This document shows, piece after piece, positions 6,211 to 34,733 of a stretch of DNA of 64,000 bases. This DNA is from Candidatus Micrarchaeota archaeon (GTDB lineage Archaea > Micrarchaeota > Micrarchaeia > Micrarchaeales > CABMGC01): contig JAJZOD010000003.1 of assembly GCA_021852055.1 (NCBI GenBank), positions 82,846 through 146,845 on the forward strand. Direction: 5' to 3'. Numbering within the stretch: position 1 is the stretch's first letter; every line of letters starts with the position of its first letter. The translations under genes and the position numbers were made by a program. The notes under the pieces are model-generated. The model searched no databases. It saw nothing but the letters and a program-made list of their open reading frames with translations, and was not told the origin of the DNA.

Positions 6211-6309
6211 CATCCCCAATTTTTTACTGTGGTATTTGTTCTTTAGTAATGAACAATAGTGTTCATTGGTAATGAAAACATTTAAATATCTTAGGCTCTA
6301 AATGAAATC

Positions 6310-7530: not shown

Positions 7531-7791
7531 TGTATGAAAGTGAAAAAAGAGATTAAAATTGTTTTGCCTATAAGTCCGTGTTCAAAAGAAATATCTCCAA
7601 TTTGGATTTTACCGAGTACACAAACCTTTTTGGAAATGTTTGGCGAAAACACTGGGTGCGGTTACAGCTAGATTTACACCGTATCTGTTTATATTTCTAA
7701 ACGCGGTGTAATCTGTGTGCGAAGACACAGATGTTCGCATTTTCCGAAATATGATCTACGGTGTCTTGAATGGCTAGAAAAATAGACGACA

Positions 7792-7853
7792 GGGCTCGTG
7801 AGCGCGTTCCGTTCGCAACAGAAAGGTCGCGGGTGCGATCCCCGCCGAGTCCA
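7792..7853 (+). pseudogene. Decayed 62-nt copy of tRNA-Ala. Both acceptor strands and the T arm are kept, while the D and anticodon arms are deleted
   Basis: GGGCTCGTGAGCGC...TTCGCAACAGAAAGGTCGCGGGTGCGATCCCCGCCGAGTCCA aligns to both ends of the 5998-6109 gene and keeps the last bases of its intron (CAGAA). It is followed by a third copy of the trailer hairpin (7855-7876). Confidence 0.75.
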
Positions 7854-7878
7854 TAAAACTTCTTAAAAAGAAGTTTAT

Positions 7879-9187: not shown

Positions 9188-9208
9188 AATATCATTAACT
9201 ACACTTTA

Positions 9209-9224
9209 TTACATATTTATGTAA
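9209..9224. promoter_or_regulatory. Perfect 16-bp palindrome TTACATATTTATGTAA 22-37 nt upstream of the abiEii start. Candidate autoregulatory operator overlapping the promoter
   Basis: The inverted repeat is read directly from the sequence. AbiEi proteins are known to autoregulate through promoter inverted repeats. Confidence 0.35.
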
Positions 9225-9281
9225 TAATATACATTTATATAACTGTATGTTAAAACAAACCGTTGTAGCTTTATCCGAAAG

Positions 9282-9712
9282 TCATAGACAACTTAAGAAT
9301 ATTATACCCAGTAGGACTTTTTTGATATAATGTTCGCCAATAAGTTTCGTCTTTCCGTATAGCGTTGGTGGGTCTTGATTTACACCGAGTGTAGAAATAT
9401 ATAGTACCTTAGAATTAATCATGTTTGCAGCCGTAACCACGTTTTTGGTTCCTTCAGAATTAATTGCGAGGGCACTTTTAGGATATTCTTCACATACTTT
9501 CCTACTTGGAATTGCAGCAGCATGTATAGTTAATTCCGGCCTTATGGTTAAGAAAGCTTGAACAACCGCTTCCTTATTAGTAATGTCCAGTTCTATTAAT
9601 TCATTGAATAATTTGTTTTTCTGAAATGTGCCAATTAATTCATAGTGCTTGCTTAGGTTCGTGAATATGCTTGCGCCTACATACCCGTTGCTCCTGTAAC
9701 TAAGATCTTCAT
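9282..9712 (-). pseudogene. Frameshifted and 3'-truncated NAD-dependent sugar reductase/epimerase (RmlD / dTDP-4-dehydrorhamnose reductase-like)
   Basis: The minus strand reads MKILVTGATGM* and then, after a -1 shift, GYVGASIFTNLSKHYELIGTFQ...IHAAAIPSRKVCEEYP...STLGVNQDPPTLYGKTKLIGEHYIKK. This contains a Rossmann GxxGxxG and a YxxxK. It ends after ~140 aa, against ~280 aa expected. Confidence 0.7.
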
Positions 9713-9713
9713 T

Positions 9714-10574
9714 CTAAAACTTTGTTTGATTTATATCTATGACAATTGGTGCGTGGTCACTCGGAGGCTCAAGGTTTTCTATAGGGACGCGCTCTTCTTT
9801 GTCTACCCATATCCGATCTACCAGACCTAGAATACCTTTGTCACCTAGGACTAAATCGAAACGCAGACCTTCGTCACGGTTAAATCCATCACGCATGTAA
9901 GGCCACCATGTGAAAACACGCTCTTGGGTTTTTGTTCGGAGTATGTCTTGAAGCCGTGTTCCTTGAAGTCTCTTTAGCCAAGCTCTTTCTTCTGGAGTAC
10001 AATGGATCCGGTCCTTAAGTCCTTCTGGATCCCATACGTCGCAATCGTCTGGAGCAACATTAAAATCACCCACAATAAGAAGAGGAGGAGTTCGAGGGAG
10101 ATGTTGCAGCCAATCTCCAAAAGTTTCCATCCAACGGCCTTTAAGCAGGAATTTATCGCTAGTTCTGTCGTCTCCGTTTATCACATAAGCATTAACCAAT
10201 CGCACTCCTCCAATACACGCCGATATTACTCTGGCTTCATCAGACGCAGGATCTTTTGGAAAACCACGCAAAACTTCAGAAAACTCTAGATTATTTTTCA
10301 TTTCATCCACCGTGGAAAGCTTGCTTTTAGGAAAAGCCGTTAAATTGTGTTGTTTAGCTTGACCACGAATCAGGATTGCCACACCATTATAGCTAGTTTG
10401 GCCGTAAAGTATTGAATAGTAACCTGCAGTGCTCAATTGGGCTTCAGGAAAATCTTTGTTAGCTACCTTAGTTTCTTGCAAGCACACCACGTCCGGTCTA
10501 TGGCGTTTGACTAAGGCCAAAAACCTAGGTAGTCGTGCTCGGATAGAATTTACATTCCAAGAGATAATGCGCAT
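9714..10574 (-). CDS. xth: Exodeoxyribonuclease III (AP endonuclease, EEP fold)
   Basis: MRIISWNVNSIRARL...VVCLQETK...GDFNVAP...SDHAP, the full ExoIII motif set. Confidence 0.9.
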   Translation of the reverse strand: MRIISWNVNSIRARLPRFLALVKRHRPDVVCLQETKVANKDFPEAQLSTAGYYSILYGQTSYNGVAILIRGQAKQHNLTAFPKSKLSTVDEMKNNLEFSEVLRGFPKDPASDEARVISACIGGVRLVNAYVINGDDRTSDKFLLKGRWMETFGDWLQHLPRTPPLLIVGDFNVAPDDCDVWDPEGLKDRIHCTPEERAWLKRLQGTRLQDILRTKTQERVFTWWPYMRDGFNRDEGLRFDLVLGDKGILGLVDRIWVDKEERVPIENLEPPSDHAPIVIDINQTKF

Positions 10575-16643: not shown

Positions 16644-18092
16644 ATGAAGAAAAACGTAAGCAGGACAAATAGGACAAATGCCTTAGATGCTATAATAATC
16701 ATCATTCTGCTGATACTTCCTATAATGACTTTCTATGCCATACTTAGCATACAAGGGCCCTCATGGGATATTACTGCAAGATACCTGAATGGGAAGACGC
16801 TGCTTAATTTTATAGCCGGCGGAGCACACAAAGGAAATGCATTTGCTGGCGAGTACTCAAACAATCTTGCTTATTATTTCGAGCCTTACCGTGAACCGCT
16901 GAGCACGCCTATATTTGCGGTTATTGATGCAGTCTCTTCGGATTCTATCCTTGTTTATATAATCCTGATTTTTGTGGCTTATGCTGCAGTTGTGTGGAGG
17001 CTCGGAAAGGAGCTCAATATAGACACAGTAACCATCCTTGCAGCCATGACTGGACCATACGCTGTATTTTTCTTTTTTGTGCCGAACGGTGGCGAGGGGC
17101 TCGCAGTCATATTCGTGATTCTTGGTATCATATACCTCCTCAAAAAGAATCCAGTATCCGGCCTGTTCTTCGGCATCGCAGTGCTCGGAAAGTATCCTGC
17201 ACTAATACTTCTGCCTATACTTATTTTGCTGTGGAATAAGAAGAAGTTTGCCATAGCAGCCATCCTTGCTGCTGCTCCTATCGTGGCATGGGGTGTTATA
17301 GACTGGGGGCTCTATGGCGTGCCATTCTACAGTTATCTTGCATCAATATCCTATGCAAATGTTGCCTCTGCGCCATCTTATATAAGCTGGTCAGCAGTCA
17401 TCGGTGTTATTGCCTACCCTGTTGTGTTCGCATGCATTGGCATTGCCGCAATTTTTGCCTGCAGAAAGCGCATAAGCCTGTTCTTCAATTATAAAAGCTA
17501 TATAAATTACAAAGCAAAGGTATTTGCCGTATTAGTTGTGCTTTCGCTGCTGGGTTATGCTGCAATACTTCCGCATAATAATGCATTCACGCAGGCGAGG
17601 TATGGTTTCCTGCTGGCAGCAGCGCTCATGGCTTCCTCTGCAGTTATAATGGGGCGGGCCGTCCTCACAGTTTACAAGGTCAAATACGCTGCAGCAGCAT
17701 TTGCCATTGCAGTACTTTTGGGTTATCTCGTGTATTCGTCATTTATTCTCAATACAGCCCAGCTTAAATATTATAATCCAGGAAACAAAGCAAGCATATA
17801 TGCTTATTCTGAAAACGTACTCAGCAGTTTCGGCTTCAATAATTGCAGGGTAGTCTCAAATGCATGGATACCAATGCTGTATTCGGGTTACGATGCATAC
17901 TCCCCATACATATTTTATGGTGATATGGAGCAAGAGCACTACCCTGTTGTAGTATTCAACTACACTGGAGTGTCAATGGGCAGCACCAGGTACCTGCCGC
18001 TTCTAAAAAACGACACTAAAGCGTATTCCGGAGCCAACTTTACGATTTATCTACCAAAAGAGGCATCATGCTACAACTACACCGAACAATAA
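16644..18092 (+). CDS. Polytopic membrane protein, possible GT-C-type glycosyltransferase
   Basis: More than 10 predicted TM helices followed by a C-terminal soluble tail. It lies adjacent to a processive GT2. Assignment rests on architecture only. Confidence 0.4.
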   Translation: MKKNVSRTNRTNALDAIIIIILLILPIMTFYAILSIQGPSWDITARYLNGKTLLNFIAGGAHKGNAFAGEYSNNLAYYFEPYREPLSTPIFAVIDAVSSDSILVYIILIFVAYAAVVWRLGKELNIDTVTILAAMTGPYAVFFFFVPNGGEGLAVIFVILGIIYLLKKNPVSGLFFGIAVLGKYPALILLPILILLWNKKKFAIAAILAAAPIVAWGVIDWGLYGVPFYSYLASISYANVASAPSYISWSAVIGVIAYPVVFACIGIAAIFACRKRISLFFNYKSYINYKAKVFAVLVVLSLLGYAAILPHNNAFTQARYGFLLAAALMASSAVIMGRAVLTVYKVKYAAAAFAIAVLLGYLVYSSFILNTAQLKYYNPGNKASIYAYSENVLSSFGFNNCRVVSNAWIPMLYSGYDAYSPYIFYGDMEQEHYPVVVFNYTGVSMGSTRYLPLLKNDTKAYSGANFTIYLPKEASCYNYTEQ

Positions 18093-18188
18093 AAACAGCC
18101 AAATTTTACGGCTGCATAACACACAGCTGCACAGGATTTACGCTGCAGCATCCGCATTCCTTCTGCAGGCAATGCCAATATATTTATA

Positions 18189-19823
18189 TTGTTGGATAAT
18201 AAGATTTATCTGAAGCCGATACTGGCTAAAATTAAGCCTACTGATACCATGAAGAACATAAACGCTGACTACATAACACGCCTGTTTTCAGTTGTGCTAT
18301 TCGCATTCCTTACAATATTCGGGGCATTTTTCTTTGTATATCTTGTTATATACGCGCACAGCCTTTACAGCTACCTGCTCGCATTCTCATATCTTATTTT
18401 AATGCTGATATCCGGCTTCTTCAACATATTCACTGCATATGCATATTACCGCTCTTACTTCTATTACAAGTATCTTGACGGTATAAAGAGAAAAATTTCA
18501 TATTCTGCAGATAAAAAAAGCGTGCAAAACAAACCAAGCGTTGCAATAGTAATGTCAACTTTCAATGAAGACACCTCAGTAGTTAAAAGAAACCTCCAAC
18601 GTCTTCTTAAATTAAATTACCCTAAGGAAAAGCTGGCCTTTTATCTGCTTGATGATTCTACCGAGCCTACAATAATAACAGAGATGCGCAGTTTCTGCGG
18701 GAAGTTAGGCATAAAATACATACACCGGCAAAAAAGGCGCGCATACAAGGCCGGCGCGCTGAATAATATGCTCAAGTACTCAAAAGAAGACCTGATAGCC
18801 TACTTCGATTATGATGAGTATCTTGTAAACTTGAACTTTGTGCAGGATCTCGTGCCATATTTTGCAGACAAAAAGCTTACCTACATACAGACGGAGAAAA
18901 GCTACGCAAAGGGCAACTTCTTCTCAGACACAGTCGCACTTATAGACGGCTTCTTTTTCAAGTTCGTCCAGCCGGCAAGGGCTCTTGATAATACGGCAAT
19001 ATTTGCAGGTTCGTGCGGTATTATACGCAGGAAGCATCTGGTCGCAATGAAAGGATTTCCCGAATACATAACAGAAGACTCCTTCTTCAGTTTTGAGACT
19101 GATATGAACGGCTACAAAAGCCTTTATCTACCAAAGGTATACGCATTGGGCAAGCCAATAACAACATTTACTGAACTGGTCAGGCAGCAGTGGAGGTATA
19201 ATTACGGCGGAACCCAGTTTATAAGTTACTTTGCCGAAAGGCTGCGCCACAGAAACAAAGAGCGAAAGGTCTCAAGGCTTTCGATAGTGGATTACGCAAT
19301 GCACGGCTTCGGCTTAAACTATATATCGGTCATAGCAATAATATTTACTATCTTCTCCATACTGGTAACATTTTCACAGCTTCCTATAGTGAGTGTCAGC
19401 ATAAGCCAGCTGTTTCAGCCAAGCCTCATAAACCTTGATTTGGAGATATTCGGCATGGGTGTACTGTTTGCGTCTGTGTTAATGCCGATGATGCTCACAA
19501 AGATATACTTCGGTTCGTTCAAAAAAGGCATAATGTTCTTCTTCCTAACGTTTGCCCTGGTATTCGTACGGGCCAAGGCAGCCGCTGCAGCCGTATTCAA
19601 GACAAGCAGGAAGATAGTATGGGATAAAGATTCAATTAACGGAAACTACGGAAAGTTTGTATATGCATTTAGAAACTCATTGGCTGAATCGTCTTTCTCC
19701 CTCATATTAATGCTTCTGGGCGCTATGGCCATGGTAATAGGCAACCTGTTCGGCGGCTTCTGGCTTCTGTGGTATGCTGCCCTATACCTGATGACACCGT
19801 TAATGTTCTATAAATACGGCTGA
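18189..19823 (+). CDS. Membrane-embedded processive family-2 glycosyltransferase (cellulose/chitin-synthase-like)
   Basis: VAIVMSTFNE, DDST, an FDYDEY acidic motif, the QxxRW signature (RQQWRY) and flanking TM helices. The 18189 start is TTG and the first ATG is at 18249. Confidence 0.75.
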   Translation: MLDNKIYLKPILAKIKPTDTMKNINADYITRLFSVVLFAFLTIFGAFFFVYLVIYAHSLYSYLLAFSYLILMLISGFFNIFTAYAYYRSYFYYKYLDGIKRKISYSADKKSVQNKPSVAIVMSTFNEDTSVVKRNLQRLLKLNYPKEKLAFYLLDDSTEPTIITEMRSFCGKLGIKYIHRQKRRAYKAGALNNMLKYSKEDLIAYFDYDEYLVNLNFVQDLVPYFADKKLTYIQTEKSYAKGNFFSDTVALIDGFFFKFVQPARALDNTAIFAGSCGIIRRKHLVAMKGFPEYITEDSFFSFETDMNGYKSLYLPKVYALGKPITTFTELVRQQWRYNYGGTQFISYFAERLRHRNKERKVSRLSIVDYAMHGFGLNYISVIAIIFTIFSILVTFSQLPIVSVSISQLFQPSLINLDLEIFGMGVLFASVLMPMMLTKIYFGSFKKGIMFFFLTFALVFVRAKAAAAAVFKTSRKIVWDKDSINGNYGKFVYAFRNSLAESSFSLILMLLGAMAMVIGNLFGGFWLLWYAALYLMTPLMFYKYG

Positions 19824-19832: not shown

Positions 19833-20147
19833 ATGCTATACATCAAACTGTACGAAACAGAAAAAGGAAGCATAGTAGCCCTGTGCGATGAAGGTCTTCT
19901 GGGGAAGAAGTACACAGACAAGCGCACCGGTGCAGAGCTTGATCTTAATAAGTACTCGGACTTTTATAAAGGCGACCTTGTCAATGCAGAGGAGGCAAAG
20001 CGAATAGTCTCACAAGAGTACATCTATTCTGCAAATGTGGTCGGCAATGAATCCGTAAGCCTTATGGTCGATGTTGGCCTTGCAGCAAGTGATGAGATAA
20101 AAATTATCGCCAAAGTCCCCTCTCTCCATATATATCGCCTGCTGTAA
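19833..20147 (+). CDS. DUF424-family protein
   Basis: MLYIKLYETEKGSIVALCDEGLLGKKY... matches the DUF424 pattern. The last 9 codons lie within the 37-bp repeat. Confidence 0.55.
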   Translation: MLYIKLYETEKGSIVALCDEGLLGKKYTDKRTGAELDLNKYSDFYKGDLVNAEEAKRIVSQEYIYSANVVGNESVSLMVDVGLAASDEIKIIAKVPSLHIYRLL

Positions 20148-20152
20148 TTATG
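20116..20152 (+). repeat. Left copy of a 37-bp imperfect direct repeat (exact 23-bp core atatatcgcctgctgtaattatg at 20130-20152)
   Basis: Aligns with 23706-23742 at a constant offset of 3590 nt with 3 mismatches. It covers the DUF424 C-terminal codons PSLHIYRLL and the stop codon. Confidence 0.9.
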
Positions 20153-20366
20153 CCTTAGCCTTTCACTGCGCTGGGTCAAAGTAGCTTTGACATAATAATT
20201 TAGTAAGAGTTTAAGATTGCTACGGGCAAATTTTGTCATTCGATGACAATCATCAGGAAACTGCAAAACGCACGAAAATTCTGCCGTCGAAGCCGTAAAA
20301 TTTTTGAACTGTTACGCGCTCACGGAAACCTTATTATCCTTTGCTATCTGAGAATAAAACAGTAAG

Positions 20367-21107
20367 GTGTTAGATATGGCAGACATAGGAAGAGTGAAGA
20401 CCGGAATACCGGGATTCGATGAACTTGTGGAAGGCGGAATACCAAACGGCAGTTTCGTAGTCGTGACTGGCGGCCCCGGAACAGGCAAGACGATACTTGG
20501 CCTGCAGTTCCTCGAGAATGGGATAAACCAGTACAAAGAGAAGGGAATTTTCATCAGTGTAGAGCAGTCGAAACCAGAGATACTCCGCCAGGCAGGGCAG
20601 TTCGGCTGGAACCTTGGGAAGATGGAGAAGGAAGGGAATCTTCGCATAATAATCCTAAGCACGCGCGACCTCTTCGATGCCTCAGAGGTCGAGAAGGTGA
20701 TATCCGCTATAAGGGAGGACCACTACTCAAGGGTCGTTATCGACAGCATCACCTCGTTCGTGATGACACCGCCGTCTCCCTCGACTGTAACACATAGCAT
20801 ATCCAACAAACAGGATGTCGGTGCTTTCGGCGAGCTGAGACGCGCCAGTGCAGCGATGCTCATAGACAGGATAAAGACAAGCGGAGTTACTGCATTGGGC
20901 CTTGCACAAAAGGTGGACGGCATGCCAGGATTGACAGCCGACACAATAAGCGAGTTCAAGGGCGACGGGCTGGTAATGTTATCCATTGTGGAAACAGGAG
21001 GAGATGTAAGTCGCATCCTGAAGGTGCTTAAGATGAGGAGTTCGAACAATGATCTTAATACCAAAAAATTCTCCATCAAGAAGGGCACCGGGATTGTTAT
21101 AGAATAG
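20367..21107 (+). CDS. Single-domain KaiC/RadA-like (RecA-superfamily) ATPase
   Basis: IPGFDELVEGGIPNGSFVVVTGGPGTGKT (Walker A) and VVIDSI (Walker B). Size is 246 aa. Confidence 0.85.
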   Translation: MLDMADIGRVKTGIPGFDELVEGGIPNGSFVVVTGGPGTGKTILGLQFLENGINQYKEKGIFISVEQSKPEILRQAGQFGWNLGKMEKEGNLRIIILSTRDLFDASEVEKVISAIREDHYSRVVIDSITSFVMTPPSPSTVTHSISNKQDVGAFGELRRASAAMLIDRIKTSGVTALGLAQKVDGMPGLTADTISEFKGDGLVMLSIVETGGDVSRILKVLKMRSSNNDLNTKKFSIKKGTGIVIE

Positions 21108-21119
21108 AGTGTTGTCTAG

Positions 21120-22238
21120 ATGCCTGCACTGGATAGGGTTAAAGATTTCTTTATAAAAAACATCTTGATACCTAAAGTATTCCGAATAGATATCCCAGGG
21201 TATGTGGCAGGCAAGTTTTATACGATAGAAGGGCAGTCGGTATTTGTAAGAAATGTTTTTGTTCCAGAAACGTTCTTCATTAAATTGGAGCATCTGGTGA
21301 TAAAAGAGATGGGTGCGGAAGGTGTGATTCAGTTATACCGCATCGGGAAGCAGTTTGGATACAGATTCTCACAGACGAACAGATTTCCACTGGACAATCC
21401 TGCCAAGGCTATTGTACTGGTTGCAAGCTTCTTTGAAACCTTATACGCAGATTCAATAAAATCCAAAGTAGATATACCTAACAAGATACTAGTACTGGAT
21501 ACTAAAGGATTAGTCATAACCCGAGAAAATGGCGGAGGTTACATTCTCACAATCGGCGGCTGTGCAGGAATCTGGGGTTATTTAGTGGGGGATTACTCTG
21601 TCGAGTGTTCTTCACGAAAGATAGGGAATGAAGAATACGAGTTGGTAAGTGCCGCTCCCAGCGTATTGGAGAAGGAACATCTTGATATTGTACGCTGTAT
21701 TGAGAAGCCGCAGAAGTTAAATGTAACAAGTTACAATTTATATAATCAGCCCCCTCTGGAGATTTCTGAAACGGCCCCCACCATAGATAAACTCATGACC
21801 GAGTCAGGCGTAATCTCTTATAAAGGAGGGAGGCTGCATTTATCAGTGTCAAATGTTAGATTTATTCCGATAGAGATATCCTTGCTGTCAGAAGTAAGCA
21901 TCCTTCCGGCAAAATTTGTTTCTAAGGCGGCTTATGATTCCTTCTACGAAATTGGTAAAAATACAACCAAACAGAAGGATCCATACTTGTTCATAGCTGA
22001 ATTGTTAACTGCATTTGGATTTGGAATAGTGGATGTCATAGTAAAAAAGAATAGCAGAGTCTTCAACATGAGAGGCTATCCCTATCTCACGGAAGCTTAT
22101 AAAAACACGGATTTCTCTTTCATAACAAGCATTTTGCGCGGATTTTTGGATGGAAATACACTGGAGACCCATTCTGCAGTTGGTGTATCCTCAAAAATAT
22201 CTGGTAACATGTTTATACTTACAATAGAGATTAAATGA
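21120..22238 (+). CDS. Uncharacterised 372-aa protein with two V4R-like (4-vinyl-reductase / hydrocarbon-binding) halves
   Basis: The N-terminal half reads ...VPETFFIKLEHLVIKEMGAEGVIQLYRIGKQFGYRF...GGCAGIWGYLVG. The C-terminal half reads ...FIPIEISLL...AAYDSFYEIGKN...ELLTAFGFG. This is pattern resemblance only. It starts 12 nt after kaiC-like and overlaps the next gene by ATGA. Confidence 0.4.
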   Translation: MPALDRVKDFFIKNILIPKVFRIDIPGYVAGKFYTIEGQSVFVRNVFVPETFFIKLEHLVIKEMGAEGVIQLYRIGKQFGYRFSQTNRFPLDNPAKAIVLVASFFETLYADSIKSKVDIPNKILVLDTKGLVITRENGGGYILTIGGCAGIWGYLVGDYSVECSSRKIGNEEYELVSAAPSVLEKEHLDIVRCIEKPQKLNVTSYNLYNQPPLEISETAPTIDKLMTESGVISYKGGRLHLSVSNVRFIPIEISLLSEVSILPAKFVSKAAYDSFYEIGKNTTKQKDPYLFIAELLTAFGFGIVDVIVKKNSRVFNMRGYPYLTEAYKNTDFSFITSILRGFLDGNTLETHSAVGVSSKISGNMFILTIEIK

Positions 22239-23107
22239 ATAACAGACTAAAAGGCGTAAGAGAGGCATTCAATCTACCAATATTGTTAGTTGTGGTTCCA
22301 ACAGTTGCATTAGGCTTTCTCGCAGGAGGATCTACAAACATTCTCCTTCTGCTCGACTCTTTAGCTTTGATTGTGCTGATGAGCATCAGTGCGAATGTAA
22401 TAAACAACTATGCGGATTGGGATATAGACATAATGAATAGGAAACGCAATATTATGCACGAAACATGGCGTCGGAACGAGCTTTTGGCGTTTTACCTTAT
22501 TCTGTTAGTTGTACTCTTTGTGATTGCCTTCCTGTCAAATGCAAGCATGTATCTTTGGATAACGGTAGTCTTACTGGTTATTCTTGGTATATGCTATTCA
22601 ATCACCATCAGACTGAAGAACATTGTCCCGCTGAATTACATTGCAATAGCCGGTGCGTATGGTTTCCTGTCTTTTTACATGGGCTTTTTCGCATCTTCTT
22701 TCTCTTCATCCAAGTTCTGGTTGTGGATACCGGTGCCACTGTTCCTATTTGCAATGGATTTGGGGTATTCAATAACTAAGGATTACAGTGATGTGATTGG
22801 GGATAAGGCATACGGCAAGAAAACGCTACCTCTGGTAATAGGAAAATCCGAATCCGTGAAGGTGCAAACGGTAATTATTACAATTGCGTATGTGTTTTTG
22901 TTCCTGTTAATACTATTTGGCAAGTTGAGTTATGCATTTTCAGTTCTATTTCTGTCTTATCTATTTGCACTTTATATACTCTGGCAAACCAGATCTACAG
23001 ATAACAATAAGCTCCTTCGAAATGCACATCTTGAGGCTCAGCTTAATGGATTGTTAGCAAGATTCATAATGATTACGATACTTTTACTTGCTCTTGCGGA
23101 AATCTAG
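22235..23107 (+). CDS. UbiA-family aromatic/isoprenoid prenyltransferase (about 8-9 TM helices)
   Basis: First Asp-rich motif NNYADWDID. Second motif KDYSDVIGDKAYGKKTLP. Confidence 0.8.
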   Translation: MNNRLKGVREAFNLPILLVVVPTVALGFLAGGSTNILLLLDSLALIVLMSISANVINNYADWDIDIMNRKRNIMHETWRRNELLAFYLILLVVLFVIAFLSNASMYLWITVVLLVILGICYSITIRLKNIVPLNYIAIAGAYGFLSFYMGFFASSFSSSKFWLWIPVPLFLFAMDLGYSITKDYSDVIGDKAYGKKTLPLVIGKSESVKVQTVIITIAYVFLFLLILFGKLSYAFSVLFLSYLFALYILWQTRSTDNNKLLRNAHLEAQLNGLLARFIMITILLLALAEI

Positions 23108-23249
23108 CTCTGCACGGTTTCACTACTTGTAGTTATTTGGGGGTCAGGTAAATCTCCTCCGGCAAGACTCTCTGCCTCGAAAGATGCAAACCCCACTATA
23201 AGCGGTTGGGAGATTTCTCCGCACTAAATTAATTGGTCTGTTGATAGTC

Positions 23250-23700
23250 CTAAGTTATTTCAACTGAAGGGCATCGTAGCAGTGCTGTTTATCTGATTCC
23301 TATTTTCAATCACGATGGCTTTGTTTTCATATTGCCATAATGCTGTATAGGTTTCCTACGCTTTCTTTCACTGTCGTTCCAATACCTTCGTTTAGTACCA
23401 CAAACACAAGTTGTGTGTTTACCCTCTTCGCCTTATCCACTCCCTTCTCCAACTCTTCTCTCATCGCATTCGTCTGTCATTCGTAAATGGTCAGACTGCC
23501 AGTATCCTATGCTATCCTCCTCCTTGCTTTTATCGCGCCAACATGAACCAGTTCTTATCCAAATCGACAAACGCGAAATTACCTTTATCCTGCACCATGA
23601 GAATCGCCTTGCGCATAGGTCTTTGTGCTCCTCGCCTACTGCGAGAACTCCCATCTTGCGATCATGCGGTCGGGATCTATCACGTTAAGTCTCTTCACCG
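23250..23700 (-). pseudogene. Frame-disrupted gene remnant(s) of unknown family at the right end of the insertion
   Basis: Minus-strand fragments in three frames are separated by stops: MRKAILMVQDKGNFAFVDLDKNWFMLAR*, ...NAMREELEKGVDKAKRVNTQLVFVVLNEGIGTTVKESVGNLYSIMAI* and ENKAIVIENRNQINSTATMPFS*. Confidence 0.3.
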
Positions 23701-23705
23701 TCAAT

Positions 23706-23742
23706 TTCCCTCCCTCCACATATATCGCCTGCTGTAATTATG
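23706..23742 (+). repeat. Right copy of the 37-bp imperfect direct repeat
   Basis: See 20116-20152. It lies about 50 nt from the convergent NAC gene stop. Confidence 0.9.
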
Positions 23743-23793
23743 TCTTCTGCCCAGGCTATACGCTACAATGGGTCAAAAAATATCGGCAAGGCA

Positions 23794-29589: not shown

Positions 29590-30312
29590 TTATGTTTTCC
29601 TAAGTTTTGCATAATACTCGGACGCTTTTAGCAACGAATCAAAGCTTCCAACATCAGACCAGAAGCCCTCTACCATGACAACTCTCAAAAGTCCATCATT
29701 CATATACTCTTTGTTCACGTCAGTGAGTTCTAGTTCACCTCTTGGGCTTTCCTTAAGCTGCCTTATGCGCTTAAAAACGTCGTTGGGGTAAATGTATAAT
29801 CCCGTAAGAACAAATTTTGATTTTGGATTCTCTGGCTTCTCTTCAATACTTATGACTTTATCATCCTTATCAAGCTCAACGACGCCAAACAACGATGGAT
29901 TATCGCTTTCTTTTACAAATATATACGCATACTTATCGGTGAAAGCTCCCCCTGGAATCTCTGCGGAGCTAAATACATTATCGGCAAGTATCACAACTAC
30001 TTTCTCTTTTCCAAAGAATTCTTCTGTCTGCAACAGTGCATGGGCAGTACCGCGGGGTTTGTTTTGCACCCTATACGTTAATGTAAGTTCCGGTCTCGCG
30101 TATACCTCGAGAAATCTTATAAAATCCTCAAGATGATCCTCACCTGTGACTATACAGACATTATCCACGCCGGATTTCTTGAGCGTATCCAACGGATATG
30201 TCACCATTGGTCTATCAAATACAGGAAGCAAACTCTTGTTAGTTACATATGTAAGCGGTCGTAGCCGTTTGCCCTCGCCTCCGGCAAGTATGGTACCCCT
30301 TCTGTTTGCCAA
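29590..30312 (-). CDS. Sugar-1-phosphate nucleotidylyltransferase (short form, RmlA/GlmU-N-like)
   Basis: ILAGGEGKRLRPLT signature. Confidence 0.8.
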   Translation of the reverse strand: MANRRGTILAGGEGKRLRPLTYVTNKSLLPVFDRPMVTYPLDTLKKSGVDNVCIVTGEDHLEDFIRFLEVYARPELTLTYRVQNKPRGTAHALLQTEEFFGKEKVVVILADNVFSSAEIPGGAFTDKYAYIFVKESDNPSLFGVVELDKDDKVISIEEKPENPKSKFVLTGLYIYPNDVFKRIRQLKESPRGELELTDVNKEYMNDGLLRVVMVEGFWSDVGSFDSLLKASEYYAKLRKT

Positions 30313-30392
30313 AAAACTACCTAATATATTATTACAGGCAAGATATTAAAGTGCTTTGCATGAATAAATAATCTGTCAAAATTTGTGATGTA

Positions 30393-31436
30393 ATGCAGAA
30401 ACTCTCTGTGCTCATAATGACTCGGAATAATACCAAGACAGCTATAAATCTAATTGAAGATCTGAAAGACATTGCAGACGAGTTTGTAATTATAGAAAGC
30501 AGTGAAGGAAAAGATAAAAATCTAATAAAGAAATATTCCTTAAAAAACAGAAAAGTCAGTATATACGATTCAGTAGCCCTTGGATATCAAGATCCATTGC
30601 GCATGTATGGTCTTAGCAAATGCGAAAACGAATGGGTTCTTCATCTGGATGTTGACGAGAGACTTTCATCTAGCCTAAAAACGGGACTTAAAAGTATGAT
30701 AAACACTCAAAAAGTGAGTGCATTCTCATTCAGAAGATACGAACACGTAGAAAACAATAACCATCGCAGGACTTCATTCTTCACTTGGCAGGTGCGTTTG
30801 TTTAAAAAGAGCAAGATAGTTTTCCATGGATTAATACACGAAGCCCCAATTATAAACGGCCATATCTATTATATAAAAGACAAAGAAAAATATGTCGAAC
30901 ATGTAGAAGAGTTCAAGGTATCCGGCCCGAGAGAGTATTCAATAATGCACAAGCTGGATAGATTATCCTATGCGGCATATAATGATGCCATGTTGGAATA
31001 CTTGGCAAAATTTACAAAAACTGACAAGAAGAAAATCAAAAAAACATTTGCAGGTAGAGTACTTATATCCCTAATTCTACTATATGAGCGGATAACCTTA
31101 AAGAAATATGACAAAGAGATAAGTAATTTTGACTATTTTTTTTATAATCTATTCAAGAGCGTAGGATACGCTATTATGATGAAAAGCCCTATGGCATTTA
31201 TAAGATCTTTCGAAAATGCAACATACGAGTCCCGGCGCATAAAAGAATGGAGGCGCGAGCCCGATGCCAAAGAACTATTTGAGTTATCTAAAATTATACG
31301 AAAAATCGGGATAATAAAGTTTCTAAATCTAGATAAGGAGGAAACTGTAAAAATAATATACAACAAATACAAAGGCAAAAAACAGGGGATATCCTTATTA
31401 CTTCATCTCCTTATTGAACAATATAAAAAACAATAA
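30393..31436 (+). CDS. Glycosyltransferase family 2 with a helical C-terminal extension
   Basis: LSVLIMTRNN... and an LDVDERL (DxD-like) motif. Confidence 0.65.
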   Translation: MQKLSVLIMTRNNTKTAINLIEDLKDIADEFVIIESSEGKDKNLIKKYSLKNRKVSIYDSVALGYQDPLRMYGLSKCENEWVLHLDVDERLSSSLKTGLKSMINTQKVSAFSFRRYEHVENNNHRRTSFFTWQVRLFKKSKIVFHGLIHEAPIINGHIYYIKDKEKYVEHVEEFKVSGPREYSIMHKLDRLSYAAYNDAMLEYLAKFTKTDKKKIKKTFAGRVLISLILLYERITLKKYDKEISNFDYFFYNLFKSVGYAIMMKSPMAFIRSFENATYESRRIKEWRREPDAKELFELSKIIRKIGIIKFLNLDKEETVKIIYNKYKGKKQGISLLLHLLIEQYKKQ

Positions 31437-31452
31437 AACAAACTTAGTAAAA

Positions 31453-32424
31453 TCAATTCAAAGAATGCAATGTCATTTCAGACCCCTTTTTTCTATATAT
31501 ATTATAGCCTTCAAAAATAGCCCGAAAGGTGACGCTAACTCTCCACAAGATTCTATCTTTGAGTCTAAGGCTTGATAATTTTCTTTGCCGGGTACTGCTC
31601 TCTATTGAGAAAATTGCGCTGAATAATATTATAAGTAGCGCCTCAAATCTCTTTACAAAACCAAAATTCTTGAAGATAAAATAAACCCAGTTTTTCTGGT
31701 TATTCTCAAAAAACCTGTCTCGTGCGCTCTTCTTCGGAGAATTGACATGCGTATAACCCTCCAAATGTGTCAGACTTACTCTGCCATCATACATTACTGA
31801 AAAACCGCTCTTCCTTGCTCTCACACAATAATCCGTATCCTCAAATCCAAATTTTAAATTTTCATCAAACAATCCAATTTTGTTTATGAGTTCCTTTTTC
31901 AATAAACACATAGCTGCAGTAGACGCCTCCACTTCTTCAATTTTATTATACTGACCTTTATCGATTTCACCCCTACCCCTGCTTCTGGGAGCAATGCCTA
32001 TTATCCCTCCTGCTTGTTGTATCCTACCTGTCGGATAACGCAGTTTGCACGTAAGTATTCCACAATGCTTATGACTTTCTGCTGTAACTACAAGTTCTCT
32101 CAACCAGTTCTTATTTTCAGCAAAAACGTCATTGCTAAAAAGAACCACGTAATCTGGGTTGTATTTGTGTATAGCATAAAAAATGCCCTTGTTGTTGACG
32201 TACGAAAAGTTATATACATTATTCTCTAACCGTAATAAATCACATTTTGCAGATTTTATGACTCGGAGTGAATCATCAGTAGAGCCATTGTCAACAACTA
32301 TAATTTTAAGATTGTTGTAATTTGTCTGTAGCAATCTTTTAAGGCTCTCCTGCAATATCCCTTTTCCGTTGAATTTCCTTTCCATGCCGTTATAGTTCAG
32401 CAAGATTATGGCGACTCTCTTCAT
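31453..32424 (-). CDS. Glycosyltransferase family 2
   Basis: VAIILLNYNG...VVDNGSTDDS...FGFEDTDYC. Confidence 0.8.
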   Translation of the reverse strand: MKRVAIILLNYNGMERKFNGKGILQESLKRLLQTNYNNLKIIVVDNGSTDDSLRVIKSAKCDLLRLENNVYNFSYVNNKGIFYAIHKYNPDYVVLFSNDVFAENKNWLRELVVTAESHKHCGILTCKLRYPTGRIQQAGGIIGIAPRSRGRGEIDKGQYNKIEEVEASTAAMCLLKKELINKIGLFDENLKFGFEDTDYCVRARKSGFSVMYDGRVSLTHLEGYTHVNSPKKSARDRFFENNQKNWVYFIFKNFGFVKRFEALLIILFSAIFSIESSTRQRKLSSLRLKDRILWRVSVTFRAIFEGYNIYRKKGSEMTLHSLN

Positions 32425-32495
32425 TATATCGTTACTGATTCTTCGCTAACATTTAAATATTTGGTAAGTCATCTATAAGTAAGTACGGTATAATT

Positions 32496-33752
32496 ATGGT
32501 CATAGCTAAAGAGATAAGTAGCTGTAGGATCTGTGGCTCAAAGGCACTTATAAGAATATTGTCGCTGGGCAACCAATGCGTTACTAACTTTCTCGATAAT
32601 TCAAACGAAGAGGTATACAAAGCACCCTTAGAGCTTGTATTATGTGATCCAAAATCCGGTGGGTGCGGTTTGCTGCAATTGAAGCACACATTTGATCATG
32701 ATCTATTATACAAAAAGTATTGGTATCAATCCGGCATAAGTACTACGATGGTCAGGGCGTTGTCCAATATAGTTGAAAGTGCAGAAGACATAGTAGTTCT
32801 AAAACCTAATGATATAGTCCTTGATATCGGGTCTAATGATGGTACCCTTCTAAAGCAGTATAAAAACAACGGAATAATTCGTATAGGGTTTGAGCCATCA
32901 AATCTGTGGCAGATAAGCAACAACGATGGCATAGAAGTAATCCACAATTACTTCAATTCAGCTGATTTTAATAGCCGATTCCCCTACAAGAAAGCAAAAA
33001 TTATCACAAGCATAGCTATGTTCTACGATTTGGAGAATCCCAGTCTGTTTGTTGAAAATATTAAAGAGTGCCTAGATTCTGACGGCTTATGGATTATACA
33101 GATGAATTATCTTGGCCTAATGTTAGAAAACAACACCTTTGATAATATAAGCCACGAGCATCTTGAATACTATTCTCTCGGAACGCTTGAGTATTTATTG
33201 AAAGCGCATAATCTTTCGGTGAAAGATGTATTGTTGAATGATGTCAATGGAGGCAGTTTTAGAATATATGTGACTCACAGCTCTTCCAAGCTTAGATTTC
33301 CTGAAGGGTCAGAATCCCGTATTACTGCCCAGAGAGAATACGAACGCTCTGCAGGATTCAATAATCCAGAGTCATATCACAAGTTTGCTGAGCGTATTAA
33401 AAACATCAAGAACCAACTTCTGCAATTTCTCAACTCTGAGAAGAATAATGGCAAGATCTCATATATTTATGGGGCGTCGACTCGTGGCCTTGTCCTTCTC
33501 CAATTCTGCGGTATAGATAATAAGCTAATAAAGTTCGCAACCGACAAGAATTCAGAAAAGTGGGGAAAATATATAGCAGGTACCGGTATTAAAATATTGC
33601 CAATTGATGAATATAGAAAAAATAAACCCGACTATTTATTGGTTTTGCCATATCAGTTTATAGACGAAATAGCCGAACAGGAAGCCAATTTTCTAGACGA
33701 TGGTGGGAAACTCTTAATAGCAATACCCTCACTAAAGATAATAAGTAAGTAG
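32496..33752 (+). CDS. NDP-hexose C-methyltransferase-like enzyme (N-terminal Zn ribbon + SAM MTase + C-terminal C-MTase domain)
   Basis: CRICGSKALIRILSLGNQ (Zn ribbon), LDIGSNDG (motif I), 418-aa architecture of the TylC3/Coq-like sugar C-methyltransferases. Confidence 0.65.
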   Translation: MVIAKEISSCRICGSKALIRILSLGNQCVTNFLDNSNEEVYKAPLELVLCDPKSGGCGLLQLKHTFDHDLLYKKYWYQSGISTTMVRALSNIVESAEDIVVLKPNDIVLDIGSNDGTLLKQYKNNGIIRIGFEPSNLWQISNNDGIEVIHNYFNSADFNSRFPYKKAKIITSIAMFYDLENPSLFVENIKECLDSDGLWIIQMNYLGLMLENNTFDNISHEHLEYYSLGTLEYLLKAHNLSVKDVLLNDVNGGSFRIYVTHSSSKLRFPEGSESRITAQREYERSAGFNNPESYHKFAERIKNIKNQLLQFLNSEKNNGKISYIYGASTRGLVLLQFCGIDNKLIKFATDKNSEKWGKYIAGTGIKILPIDEYRKNKPDYLLVLPYQFIDEIAEQEANFLDDGGKLLIAIPSLKIISK

Positions 33753-33762
33753 TTGATACTTT

Positions 33763-34731
33763 ATGAAAAAGATTTTGATAACTGGTGTAACAGGCTTCAT
33801 AGGCAGCAATCTGGCCAAGAATCTCACTATGCGTGGCTATGAAGTTATCGGTATAACCAAGTATTCATCGAGCAGGGACTCTGGGGCTCTTGCAGGATAT
33901 CTTGATGGTGTAAAAGTACTTACCTGTGATATAACTGATTTCCATTCCGTTTATCAAACTATCAGAAGCGTAAATCCGGATGCTGTAATACACCTGGCAG
34001 CACTCAGTGCTGTACACGGTTCATTCGAGAAGCCGATATTTTATACGCAGACGAACCTAATCGGCACTATGAACATAGTGCACAGCATTCTTGATCTTCC
34101 AGACTTCAAGTCAAAGAAATTATTATTCGCTTCCTCCGCGTTAGTTTACGGGATACAAGAAAATAAGGCAATAAATGAAGAAACTCCTCTGCTCCCGCTG
34201 AATCCATATTCTCTAACCAAAGCAACAATGGATTTATACTTAAGAAACATTAACAAAATATATGGGCTGAAAACTACCTCTATACGATTTGCTAATACCT
34301 ACGGGAGAACACTGAACAACGAGTTCTTTATAGAACATACCATATCCTCAATGCTGAAAAATGAGAAGATATACTTGGGCAATCCTGATACTGTAAAAGA
34401 TTATATGTACGTTTCTGATCATGTCAATATATACATAAATGCCTTAGAAAGCGACAAAGCAGGGGGAGAAGCATTCAATGCAGGAACCGGTGTGGGTGTA
34501 ACAAATAAAGAAATAGTATTCAAGCTTGCTGATATAATAGGCTATGATAAGGGCAATATCATACTCGGTCAGTTTCCTCCAGGATATCCTAGCAGACCAC
34601 AAGCTGCAAACGAACCATTTATAATACTTGACATAACAAAATCAAAAAGAATGTTAGGTTGGGATCCGAGGGTAAGCCTTGACGAAGGTCTCAAAATGTG
34701 CGTCAAGTTTTGGAAAGAGAGAATAAAGTGA
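33763..34731 (+). CDS. NAD-dependent nucleotide-sugar epimerase/dehydratase/reductase (extended SDR)
   Basis: ITGVTGFIGSNL and the catalytic YSLTK (YxxxK). Confidence 0.85.
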   Translation: MKKILITGVTGFIGSNLAKNLTMRGYEVIGITKYSSSRDSGALAGYLDGVKVLTCDITDFHSVYQTIRSVNPDAVIHLAALSAVHGSFEKPIFYTQTNLIGTMNIVHSILDLPDFKSKKLLFASSALVYGIQENKAINEETPLLPLNPYSLTKATMDLYLRNINKIYGLKTTSIRFANTYGRTLNNEFFIEHTISSMLKNEKIYLGNPDTVKDYMYVSDHVNIYINALESDKAGGEAFNAGTGVGVTNKEIVFKLADIIGYDKGNIILGQFPPGYPSRPQAANEPFIILDITKSKRMLGWDPRVSLDEGLKMCVKFWKERIK

Positions 34732-34733
34732 AA

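What the first reader, a model, noticed from the sequence alone, without database searches (positions are those of the whole stretch)
20367..23107. Tightly coupled KaiC-like ATPase / double V4R-like protein / UbiA prenyltransferase operon carried on an inserted segment
The three co-oriented genes are translationally coupled, with a 12-nt gap and then an ATGA start/stop overlap at 22235-22238. A single-domain KaiC/RecA-like ATPase is followed by a 372-aa protein. Its two halves each resemble the V4R small-hydrophobic-ligand-binding domain. The third gene is a polytopic UbiA-family prenyltransferase with both Asp-rich motifs intact (NNYADWDID and DYSDVIGD). KaiC-like ATPases have been proposed as archaeal signalling hubs. 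I know of no described module that pairs one with a V4R sensor and a prenyltransferase. My inference is an ATPase switch gated by a prenylated or isoprenoid ligand made by the co-encoded enzyme, or a membrane-lipid-modifying cassette spread by horizontal transfer. This is my best candidate for an undescribed system in the window.
Basis: partly seen in the sequence, partly recalled or inferred. Interest (0 to 1): 0.75.

Follow-up and report, generated by a model that had tools for sequence, protein, structure and literature searches.

The report
KaiC/double-V4R module beside lipid prenyltransferase
A small archaeal operon pairs a KaiC-like ATPase with an unannotated protein made of two fused V4R-type ligand-binding modules, and across two lineages of tiny symbiotic (DPANN) archaea this pair sits directly in front of the enzymes that build archaeal ether-lipid membranes, suggesting an undescribed control or substrate-handling step in membrane-lipid assembly.

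Summary
KaiC-like (PF06745, E 3e-50) and UbiA (PF01040, E 2e-31, both Asp-rich motifs present) are confirmed. The 372-aa protein "X" has no Pfam or NCBIfam hit. Its confident AF2 model, and a separate model of its C-half, match only the V4R/Bet3/H-NOX fold superfamily, and each half looks like a MopR-type XylR_N+V4R sensor module.

X defines an unannotated family of about 347 clusters at 50% identity, seen here only in DPANN archaea labelled Micrarchaeota, Iainarchaeota/Diapherotrites or Aenigmatarchaeota. In 27 non-redundant loci a KaiC gene abuts X upstream in 20. The gene directly downstream is a UbiA in 10 loci (Micrarchaeota type) and a PcrB/GGGP-synthase homologue in 8 (Iainarchaeota type). 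A geranylgeranyl-reductase-like flavoprotein is often next.

The module is therefore tied to the geranylgeranyl steps of ether-lipid synthesis. My best reading is a ligand-binding V4R pseudo-dimer plus an ATPase that gates or feeds the neighbouring prenyltransferase.

The "inserted segment" idea is only weakly supported. A significant 44-nt direct repeat flanks the segment and the operon moves as a block between relatives. There is no integrase, tRNA, odd composition, or plasmid or virus relative.

Verdict: a new variant of a known kind.

The parts
20113..20156 (+). Left copy of the 44-nt imperfect direct repeat. It covers the last ~35 nt of the DUF424 gene, its stop codon and 9 nt beyond.
   Evidence: the repeat finder family D1. 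About 3e-9 such repeats are expected by chance per 64 kb.
20325..20366 (+). Conserved leader or promoter region that travels with the operon.
   Evidence: DNA homology to L016 (86%) and L011 (74%) begins exactly at 20325.
20367..21107 (+). Single-domain KaiC-like RecA-superfamily ATPase. The likely true start is the ATG at 20376.
   Evidence: PF06745 at E 2.9e-50. The best PDB matches are KaiC, PH0186, PH0284 and SSO2452. Walker A G35/G38/G40/K41, Glu66, Walker B Asp126 and Arg216/Lys222/Arg224 are invariant among the X-linked KaiCs.
21120..21704 (+). X N-terminal module (residues 1-195): an XylR_N-like beta-hairpin plus a V4R-like domain. It carries GxxxG doublets G76-G80 and G146-G150, together with C148, E162 and C163.
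   Evidence: AF2 model. Foldseek hits to MopR, PoxR, Bet3 and MJ1460. Sub-threshold PF02830 hits at the same site in 8 of 10 distant relatives. Residue conservation.
21705..22238 (+). X C-terminal module (residues 196-372): a second XylR_N-like plus V4R/Bet3-like domain. It carries G300xG302 and G341xxxG345.
   Evidence: The separate AF2 model has pLDDT 78. Foldseek hits to BcsD, TPC6, YslB, MJ1460 and DmpR. The family profile aligns this module's start to MopR residues 11-67.
22235..23107 (+). Polytopic UbiA-family prenyltransferase of the DGGGP-synthase/chlorophyll-synthase branch. Its start overlaps the X stop codon (ATGA).
   Evidence: PF01040 at E 2.2e-31. N57/D61/D65 and D183/D186/D190 are invariant. 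The profile's best PDB hits are 6m31 DGGGPS (E 8e-21) and chlorophyll synthase (E 9e-20). Multiple hydrophobic stretches.
23108..23702 (-). Gene-free tail inside the repeat-bounded segment. It holds three protein-like ORF fragments in two frames, probably a decayed gene.
   Evidence: Translations. No Pfam, PHROG or Rfam hit. No intact copy elsewhere in the window or the fetched loci. Not shared with L016 or L011.
23703..23746 (+). Right copy of the 44-nt direct repeat (39/44 identical to the left copy).

Best explanation
This is a conserved DPANN operon. A KaiC-like ATPase and a cytosolic protein X work together on the geranylgeranyl (C20) steps of archaeal ether-lipid assembly. X is a covalently fused pseudo-dimer of two MopR-like XylR_N+V4R ligand-binding modules.

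Proposed mechanism:
1. X binds a geranylgeranyl-bearing molecule in its hydrophobic V4R cavities. Candidates are GGPP, GGGP or a related lipid.
2. Ligand occupancy is coupled to the nucleotide or oligomeric state of the KaiC-like ATPase.
3. The pair thereby gates, or hands substrate to, the enzyme encoded immediately downstream.
4. In this window that enzyme is a membrane UbiA prenyltransferase of the DGGGP-synthase branch. In the Iainarchaeota-type relatives it is the soluble GGGP-synthase homologue.

Shown: gene order and tight coupling, domain and fold assignments, intact ATPase and prenyltransferase motifs, and conservation of the linkage across two DPANN phyla.

Inferred: physical KaiC-X and X-enzyme contacts, the identity of the ligand, and whether control is regulatory or by substrate hand-off.
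For: 1. KaiC abuts X upstream, within 12 nt or less, in 20 of 27 non-redundant loci spanning Micrarchaeota, Iainarchaeota and related MAGs.
2. Of 24 loci with enough downstream sequence, the gene directly after X on the same strand is UbiA in 10 and PcrB (GGGPS family) in 8. Overlapping or abutting stop/start codons are common.
3. GGR-family flavoproteins scoring 137-145 bits against TIGR02032 (cutoff 158.8) lie within one gene in L001, L005, L023, L031 and L033-35, and within three genes downstream in L028.
4. UbiA (DGGGPS branch), GGGPS and GGR all handle a geranylgeranyl chain. This follows from established knowledge of the pathway, summarised in PMC8975820.
5. X has the V4R/Bet3 fold in both halves. 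It carries the GxxxG doublets that Podar 2008 gives as diagnostic.
6. Characterised V4R/Bet3 proteins are dimers with cavities that bind small hydrophobic ligands such as phenols and palmitate. In MopR- and DmpR-type regulators they gate an ATPase domain.
7. The KaiC catalytic motifs are invariant.
8. Stand-alone V4R genes follow KaiC genes in the same genomes, and in L014 they share an operon with a cis-prenyltransferase.
9. The operon block alone (20325-23106) is conserved at DNA level in three different genomic contexts.
10. X-UbiA persists without an adjacent KaiC in four lineages, which points to a direct X-enzyme relationship.
Against: - No binding, interaction or expression data exist.
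- X itself gives no Pfam V4R hit.
- Foldseek TM-scores are modest (0.4-0.64) and E-values are only 1e-3 to 1e-4.
- The X-linked UbiA is far below every DGGGPS equivalog cutoff (48-78 bits against 269-353). It is more divergent than a second UbiA type found in L020 and L028, so it may not be the housekeeping DGGGPS.
- Some loci have X with no adjacent lipid gene (L003, L026, L027, L029).
- Part of the synteny could be inherited rather than independently selected.
- No output or DNA-binding domain is present to show how a 'switch' would act.
- Multimer prediction was not possible with these tools.
Confidence: 0.45

Rival explanations
1. X is a pure substrate chaperone or carrier, like BchJ. It solubilises and channels hydrophobic geranylgeranyl substrates or host-derived lipid precursors to the prenyltransferases. 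KaiC supplies ATP-driven loading or release rather than signalling.
For: - BchJ, the founding V4R protein, is considered a probable chaperone of bacteriochlorophyll synthesis (PMC7242693).
- bchG (UbiA family), bchP (GGR) and idi cluster together, and bchJ is part of the photosynthesis cluster in Rhodobacter-type strains.
- Bet3 binds palmitate.
- X overlaps the enzyme gene by ATGA, which suggests stoichiometric co-production.
- X-UbiA persists without an adjacent KaiC.
- The host lineages have incomplete precursor pathways.
Against: - All biochemically characterised V4R domains found in the fold search are sensors (MopR, PoxR, DmpR).
- KaiC-like ATPases are not known as lipid-handling motors.
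- The BchJ chaperone role is itself unverified.
- This reading overlaps with the best explanation and cannot be separated from it computationally.
Confidence: 0.25
2. KaiC-X is a general signalling pair and its adjacency to lipid genes is hitch-hiking. X senses some small hydrophobic molecule, KaiC transmits the signal to unrelated targets, and UbiA or PcrB merely share a transcript.
For: - KaiC-like ATPases have been proposed as general signalling hubs (title cited).
- Several loci have multiple KaiC paralogues around X: three in tandem in L026, and KaiC-X-KaiC in L028.
- Some loci lack lipid neighbours: L003 sits next to ribosomal protein genes, and L026, L027 and L029 sit next to a methyltransferase.
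Against: - Two different lipid prenyltransferases occupy the slot directly downstream of X in two clades, and GGR recurs in both.
- The stop/start overlaps are conserved.
- With only one or two such genes per roughly 1000-gene genome, repeated adjacency is very unlikely by chance.
Confidence: 0.15
3. The X-linked UbiA makes a non-membrane-lipid product, such as a prenylated aromatic, quinone-like or other acceptor. X binds the aromatic acceptor, as the phenol-binding MopR and PoxR domains do.
For: - X's best structural matches are phenol sensors.
- The X-linked UbiA is divergent, fails all DGGGPS cutoffs, and on its own detects only chlorophyll synthase in the PDB (E 2e-3).
- A second, more canonical UbiA type occurs near X in L020 and L028.
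Against: - The UbiA profile's best solved match is DGGGPS. The 4-hydroxybenzoate-type enzyme 4od4 (E 8e-3) and UBIAD1 8djk (E 7e-6) score far weaker.
- The sister clade puts GGGPS and GGR in the same position.
- These reduced genomes are not known to make quinones (my own knowledge, not tested here).
Confidence: 0.1
4. The segment is a horizontally mobile membrane-lipid-modifying cassette inserted at the 3' end of the DUF424 gene.
For: - A 44-nt direct repeat brackets the 3.6-kb segment.
- The operon block occurs in three unrelated contexts in relatives at 86% and 74% nucleotide identity.
- A decayed ORF lies in the tail.
Against: - No integrase, recombinase or tRNA is present.
- GC is 0.425 against 0.435 for the window.
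- No relatives occur on plasmids, phages or viral contigs.
- The family is confined to related DPANN lineages and is broadly syntenic, which is consistent with vertical descent plus local rearrangement.
- No empty site was found.
Confidence: 0.1

Closest known systems
XylR/DmpR/MopR/PoxR aromatic-sensing NtrC-type activators (XylR_N + V4R sensor domain controlling an ATPase)
   Same: They have the same sensor fold and the same XylR_N+V4R module order. The sensor works as a dimer, binds a small hydrophobic ligand and is coupled to an ATPase.
   Different: The ATPase here is a separate RecA/KaiC-type protein, not a fused AAA+ sigma-54 activator. There is no DNA-binding domain. The two sensor modules are fused in one chain. 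The Zn-type Cys cluster is lost in the window protein. The host is archaeal and the neighbours are lipid-synthesis enzymes.
Archaeal single-domain KaiC-like ATPase modules (the signalling-hub proposal of Makarova et al. 2017; ArlH, PH0284, PH0186, SSO2452)
   Same: It is a single KaiC/RecA domain with intact Walker A and B motifs and catalytic Glu, encoded beside a putative sensor or adaptor partner.
   Different: The partner is an unannotated double-V4R family. The operon continues into ether-lipid prenyltransferases. I could not read the 2017 survey, so I cannot exclude that it lists KaiC-V4R neighbourhoods.
BchJ-BchG-BchP of bacterial photosynthesis gene clusters
   Same: The same three families occur together: a V4R protein, a UbiA-family GGPP-using prenyltransferase and a geranylgeranyl reductase. 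BchJ is thought to be a substrate chaperone. The UbiA here scores almost equally to chlorophyll synthase and to DGGGPS.
   Different: That system is bacterial, serves a tetrapyrrole pathway, has a single V4R domain and has no KaiC ATPase. The exact bchJ-bchG adjacency is my recollection and was not verified here.
Bet3/TRAPPC3 family and stand-alone archaeal V4R proteins (MJ1460, Thorarchaeota TRAPPC3)
   Same: They share the alpha/beta-plait fold, the GxxxG helix-packing doublets, dimeric organisation and a hydrophobic cavity.
   Different: Those proteins are separate subunits that form homo- or heterodimers, and none has a known link to a KaiC ATPase or to lipid-synthesis enzymes. X is a tandem fusion with an extra N-terminal helix.

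Membership tests
KaiC/RecA-like ATPase (Pfam PF06745) | Profile match above the gathering score | tested here: met
   171.3 bits against a cutoff of 26.6, covering residues 10-245.
KaiC/RecA-like ATPase (Pfam PF06745) | Walker A, catalytic Glu and Walker B motifs intact | tested here: met
   G35, G38, G40, K41, E66 and D126 are invariant in 12 X-linked KaiCs.
Circadian KaiC (equivalog) | Tandem CI+CII double domain of about 500 aa, scoring above the NCBIfam equivalog cutoff | tested here: not met
   The protein has a single domain of 246 aa. It scores 124 bits against a cutoff of 408 (NF006799) and 107 against 546 (TIGR02655).
V4R domain (Pfam PF02830) | Profile match above the gathering score (31 bits) | tested here: not met
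   The window protein gives no hit. Distant family members score 12-21 bits at a consistent site in the N-half.
V4R/Bet3/H-NOX fold superfamily | Alpha/beta-plait fold: a helical layer packed on a 4-stranded antiparallel sheet | tested here: met
   Apart from two de-novo designed proteins and one low-probability TRAPPII hit, the 50 listed Foldseek PDB hits of the full model belong to this superfamily, with TMt up to 0.64. The same holds for the C-half modelled alone, apart from one designed protein.
V4R/Bet3/H-NOX fold superfamily | Two GxxxG doublets in helices alpha2 and alpha5 (Podar 2008) | tested here: met
   In the N-half, G76xxxG80 and G146xxxG150 are at least 94% conserved. The C-half has G341 invariant and G345 in 18 of 32 sequences. 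Its alpha2-equivalent doublet is degenerate, so the feature is met in the N-half and only partly in the C-half.
V4R domain (MopR/PoxR type) | Glu plus Cys cluster forming the structural Zn site (E...CxGxGxxxC) | tested here: not met
   The window protein keeps E162 and C163 but lacks the CxGxGxxxC pair. The motif is present in the Iainarchaeota-type members.
UbiA prenyltransferase superfamily (PF01040) | Profile match above cutoff, two Asp-rich motifs and a polytopic membrane protein | tested here: met
   109.5 bits against a cutoff of 34.2. NxxxDxxxD and DxxDxxxD are invariant. Multiple hydrophobic stretches.
DGGGP synthase (NCBIfam equivalogs PRK12882/12883/12884) | Score above the equivalog cutoff | tested here: not met
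   77.6 bits against 269, 55.5 against 296 and 46.6 against 353. The clade profile's best PDB hit is nonetheless DGGGPS 6m31 at E 8e-21.
DGGGP synthase | Catalyses GGGP + GGPP -> DGGGP | not testable with these tools
   This needs an enzyme assay or heterologous lipidomics.
NtrC-type aromatic sensors (XylR/DmpR/MopR) | V4R sensor fused to an AAA+ sigma-54 activator domain and an HTH | tested here: not met
   No Sigma54_activat or HTH domain occurs in X or KaiC.
Integrative mobile element | Integrase or recombinase gene, flanking att repeats, often a tRNA target | tested here: inconclusive
   The flanking 44-nt repeat is present. There is no integrase signature, no tRNA nearby and no plasmid or virus relative.

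The most novel reading that the evidence does not exclude
KaiC-X is a dedicated ATP-driven machine for precursor salvage, hand-off or control in archaeal ether-lipid assembly. It would have evolved in the Iainarchaeota-Micrarchaeota lineage, which is inferred to have lost G1P dehydrogenase while keeping GGGPS and DGGGPS. It would let these host-dependent cells build membranes from scavenged host isoprenoids or lipids. It would be the first accessory or regulatory component known for the archaeal lipid core pathway, and a functional context for prokaryotic V4R/Bet3-like proteins in membrane biogenesis.
Probability: 0.15. Interest if true: 0.85.

Novelty: new variant of a known kind. Interest (0 to 1): 0.62.

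Why it matters
No regulatory or accessory proteins are known to me for the core archaeal ether-lipid pathway (GGGPS, DGGGPS, GGR). How DPANN symbionts with incomplete precursor pathways obtain or assemble their membranes is an open question.

A conserved ATPase plus hydrophobic-ligand-binding pair placed directly in front of these enzymes gives a concrete, testable candidate. It also gives a physiological context to two poorly understood archaeal families:
- single-domain KaiC-like ATPases;
- V4R/Bet3-like proteins, the proposed ancestors of a eukaryotic vesicle-tethering subunit.

Finally, it defines an unannotated protein family of about 350 clusters that currently has no Pfam model.

Tried and rejected
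- Profile-profile comparison of the N-half with the C-half found no sequence similarity. The duplication is therefore argued from structure only.
- Sequence searches of X, and of the A1 and A3 profiles, against the PDB gave nothing significant. The best was MopR at E 0.18.
- The Makarova 2017 KaiC survey is not held, either by DOI or by PMC id.
It was repeated with a 7-sequence alignment. The search patterns were derived from Micrarchaeota-type sequences, which may bias the taxonomic range recovered.
- A metagenome scan for the repeat core, looking for an empty site, found nothing.
- A homology search with a stand-alone XylR_N+V4R protein returned only the query itself. I could not measure how widespread KaiC-V4R pairing is outside these loci.
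- Searches of plasmids, phages and viral contigs found no relatives.
- Rfam found nothing in the locus.
- The reconstructed pseudogene in the tail gave no Pfam or PHROG hit and has no intact copy elsewhere.
- I considered and rejected a link to the upstream cellulose-synthase-like GT2, which the BcsD fold hits suggested. That gene does not accompany the operon in L011 or L016.
Full report
OBSERVATION

There is a 12-nt gap between the first two and an ATGA stop/start overlap between the second and third.

- The first protein matches Pfam KaiC (PF06745, E 2.9e-50) as a single domain. It is far below the NCBIfam cutoffs for true circadian KaiC.
- Gene callers and the closest orthologue start this gene at the ATG at 20376, three codons downstream of the GTG at 20367.
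- The third protein matches UbiA (PF01040, E 2.2e-31) and carries NNYADWDID and DYSDVIGD.
- The middle 372-aa protein, called X here, has no hit in Pfam or NCBIfam. No solved structure is detectable by sequence.

WHAT X IS

An alignment of 18 homologues gave a confident AlphaFold2 model (pLDDT 85.9, pTM 0.87). Its secondary-structure order repeats twice: three strands, three helices, two strands, two helices, two strands.

Foldseek against the PDB returned one superfamily almost without exception: the MopR, PoxR and DmpR phenol-sensor domains, the MJ1460 V4R protein, Bet3/TPC6/TRAPPC3, BcsD/CesD, YslB and H-NOX. E-values were modest (7e-4 and up) and target TM-scores were 0.5-0.64.

I modelled the C-half separately (pLDDT 78). 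It hit the same superfamily on its own, including BcsD at 1.3e-4, TPC6 at 2.9e-4, YslB, MJ1460 and DmpR.

Sequence-level support is weak but consistent:
- Eight of ten distant family members give sub-threshold Pfam V4R hits at the same position in the N-half.
- The family profile aligns the start of the C-half with the XylR_N segment of MopR.
- Two members give weak DUF2507/YslB hits in the C-half.
- The two GxxxG doublets that Podar et al. give as the V4R/Bet3 signature are present and at least 94% conserved in the N-half (G76-G80 and G146-G150). They are partly present in the C-half (G341-G345).

The halves have no detectable sequence similarity to each other.

Characterised V4R/Bet3 proteins act as dimers with hydrophobic ligand cavities. 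I therefore read X as a covalently fused pseudo-dimer of two XylR_N+V4R modules. It cannot be made by an HMM search on this protein alone.

FAMILY AND DISTRIBUTION

A word-indexed search found 18 clusters. An exhaustive HMMER profile search found 347 representatives at 50% identity, 145 of them below E 1e-30, and nearly all full-length at 355-390 aa.

Every member with a taxonomic label comes from a DPANN MAG, apart from one bin labelled only 'bacterium'. The labels are Micrarchaeota (including a bin labelled Marsarchaeota), Iainarchaeota/Diapherotrites and one Aenigmatarchaeota. All are annotated 'hypothetical protein'.

The window itself is ordinary chromosomal DNA of a Micrarchaeota-type MAG, with FtsZ, SecE, TyrRS, NAC and LplA nearby.

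NEIGHBOURHOODS

I assembled 27 non-redundant loci and annotated them with phmmer and Pfam.

- A KaiC-like gene abuts X upstream on the same strand, within 12 nt or less, in 20 of the 27.
- 24 loci have enough downstream sequence to assess. In 10 of them (Micrarchaeota type) the gene directly after X is a UbiA of the same clade as the window's, usually with a 4-nt overlap.
- In 8 of the 24 (Iainarchaeota type) the gene directly after X is a PcrB-family protein that scores as a GGGP-synthase family member.
- A flavoprotein just under the geranylgeranyl-reductase superfamily cutoff (137-145 bits against 158.8) lies within one gene in L001, L005, L023, L031 and L033-35, and within three genes downstream in L028.
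- One example on a 788-kb contig reads KaiC-X-GGGPS-GGR-HAD, all overlapping or abutting.
- L028 has KaiC-X-KaiC followed by UbiA, GGR and stand-alone V4R genes.
- L014 has X facing an operon of KaiC, V4R, a 183-aa protein, a cis-prenyltransferase and an FAD protein.
- Four loci have only a convergent SAM-methyltransferase next to X. One has ribosomal protein genes.

GGGPS, DGGGPS and GGR are consecutive enzymes acting on geranylgeranyl chains. Each genome holds only one or two of them. Their occupation of the same slot behind X in two clades argues strongly for a functional link rather than accident.

THE ENZYMES

The X-linked KaiCs keep Walker A, the catalytic Glu66, Walker B Asp126 and conserved Arg/Lys residues invariant. 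Their nearest solved relatives are KaiC domains and the archaeal single-domain proteins PH0186, PH0284 and SSO2452. An active ATPase is likely.

The X-linked UbiA clade keeps both Asp-rich motifs invariant. Its profile hits the M. jannaschii DGGGP synthase best (E 8e-21), nearly tied with chlorophyll synthase (E 9e-20), and far ahead of the 4-hydroxybenzoate-type and UBIAD1 enzymes. That places it in the C20-prenyl branch.

However, it is well below every DGGGPS equivalog cutoff. It is also more divergent than a second UbiA type seen in L020 and L028. I therefore cannot say that it is the housekeeping DGGGPS. The 64-kb window has no other KaiC, X, UbiA, PcrB or GGR gene.

THE 'INSERTED SEGMENT'

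A 44-nt direct repeat (39/44 identical) at 20113-20156 and 23703-23746 brackets the operon plus a 600-nt tail. About 3e-9 such repeats are expected by chance in 64 kb.

DNA homology to the two closest relatives (86% and 74% identity) runs from 20325 to the UbiA stop codon (23106) in L016 and to 23074 in L011. Their flanks are unrelated to the window's, so the operon relocates as a block.

Against a mobile element:
- There is no integrase or recombinase signature. The tail holds only a decayed ORF of unknown family.
- There is no nearby tRNA.
- GC is 0.425 against 0.435 for the window.
- There are no plasmid, phage or viral-contig relatives.
- No empty site was found.

I regard insertion or rearrangement as possible and horizontal spread as unsupported.

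MECHANISM

I commit to the following, at confidence 0.45. X binds a geranylgeranyl-bearing ligand in its V4R cavities. Occupancy is coupled to the ATP or oligomeric state of the KaiC-like ATPase. The pair gates, or hands substrate to, the prenyltransferase encoded next to it. The closest mechanistic precedent is the MopR/DmpR class, where the same sensor module gates an ATPase in cis.

The main rival (0.25) is a BchJ-like substrate chaperone. BchJ, the founding V4R protein, is thought to be a chaperone of bacteriochlorophyll synthesis. It belongs to clusters that also hold a UbiA-family GGPP-using synthase (BchG) and a geranylgeranyl reductase (BchP). The exact bchJ-bchG adjacency is from memory.

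Lesser rivals are:
- a general signalling pair with hitch-hiking lipid genes (0.15);
- a non-lipid prenylated product (0.1);
- a mobile cassette (0.1; this concerns how the segment arose and is not exclusive of the functional readings above).

Shown: gene order, folds, motifs and conservation of the linkage. Inferred: the ligand, the protein contacts and the direction of control.

CONTEXT AND NOVELTY

Published work reports that Micrarchaeota retain GGGPS, DGGGPS and CDP-archaeol synthase while precursor pathways are patchy. G1P dehydrogenase is inferred lost in the common ancestor of Iainarchaeota and Micrarchaeota. The cultured Ca. Micrarchaeum harzensis appears to depend on host lipids or precursors. 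X's distribution matches that clade. This is suggestive but may be a simple clade effect.

I found no paper linking V4R or KaiC-like proteins to archaeal lipid genes. The central KaiC survey could not be read.

I classify the finding as a new variant of a known kind. KaiC-like ATPase modules and V4R sensors that gate ATPases are both known. New here are an unannotated fused double-V4R family and a conserved link to ether-lipid prenyltransferases. Interest is 0.62.

Noticed in passing
window 23108-23793: This is a 686-nt gene-free tail between the convergent UbiA and NAC genes. Its minus strand carries three protein-like ORF fragments in two frames, probably a frameshifted pseudogene. It has no Pfam, PHROG or Rfam hit and no intact copy elsewhere.
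   Followed up: yes
window 16644-19823: A 482-aa polytopic protein with no family hit and a 544-aa cellulose-synthase-like GT2 lie just upstream. The best fold hits of X's C-half are the cellulose-synthase subunit BcsD/CesD. The GT2 does not accompany the operon in relatives, so this is probably coincidence.
   Followed up: partly
L026 3724-7110: Three tandem KaiC-like genes directly precede X. L028 has KaiC-X-KaiC. This suggests hetero-oligomeric or multi-paralogue KaiC assemblies.
   Followed up: no
L026 7091-8200, L027 3666-4343, L029 7105-8142, L037 4034-5083: In a sub-group of loci a 345-370-aa SAM-methyltransferase with weak CMAS/UbiE-like similarity lies next to X on the opposite strand (convergent downstream in L026, L027 and L029; upstream in L037). 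X has no prenyltransferase gene downstream in L026, L027 and L029; in L037 the contig ends within X.
   Followed up: partly
L014 7149-11310 (minus strand): An operon of KaiC, stand-alone V4R (29.6 bits), a 183-aa unknown protein, a cis-prenyltransferase (PF01255) and a 445-aa FAD protein converges on X. This is another KaiC/V4R module sitting with isoprenoid enzymes.
   Followed up: partly
L030 7903-8709, L032 7898-8695, L034 8988-9680, L036 3448-4218: A HAD-IB, phosphoserine-phosphatase-like hydrolase consistently closes the KaiC-X-PcrB(-GGR) operon in Iainarchaeota-type loci.
   Followed up: partly
L001, L013, L015, L022: In the Micrarchaeota sub-clade that lacks an adjacent KaiC, the order X-UbiA-glutamate dehydrogenase is conserved.
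   Followed up: no
L016 and L024 (MAG JAMCZF01, labelled Marsarchaeota): One MAG carries two very different X loci, at 92% and 34% identity to the window protein. Either it has two paralogous modules or it is a mixed bin.
   Followed up: no
window 6000-10000 and 30000-40000: These are low-GC stretches (0.34-0.39 against about 0.45 elsewhere). I did not examine them.
   Followed up: no
X family alignment, window residues 148-175: Iainarchaeota-type members keep a V4R-style E...CxGxGxxxC cluster. Micrarchaeota-type members, including the window protein, have lost the Cys pair through a 3-residue deletion and carry C148, E162 and C163 instead.
   Followed up: yes
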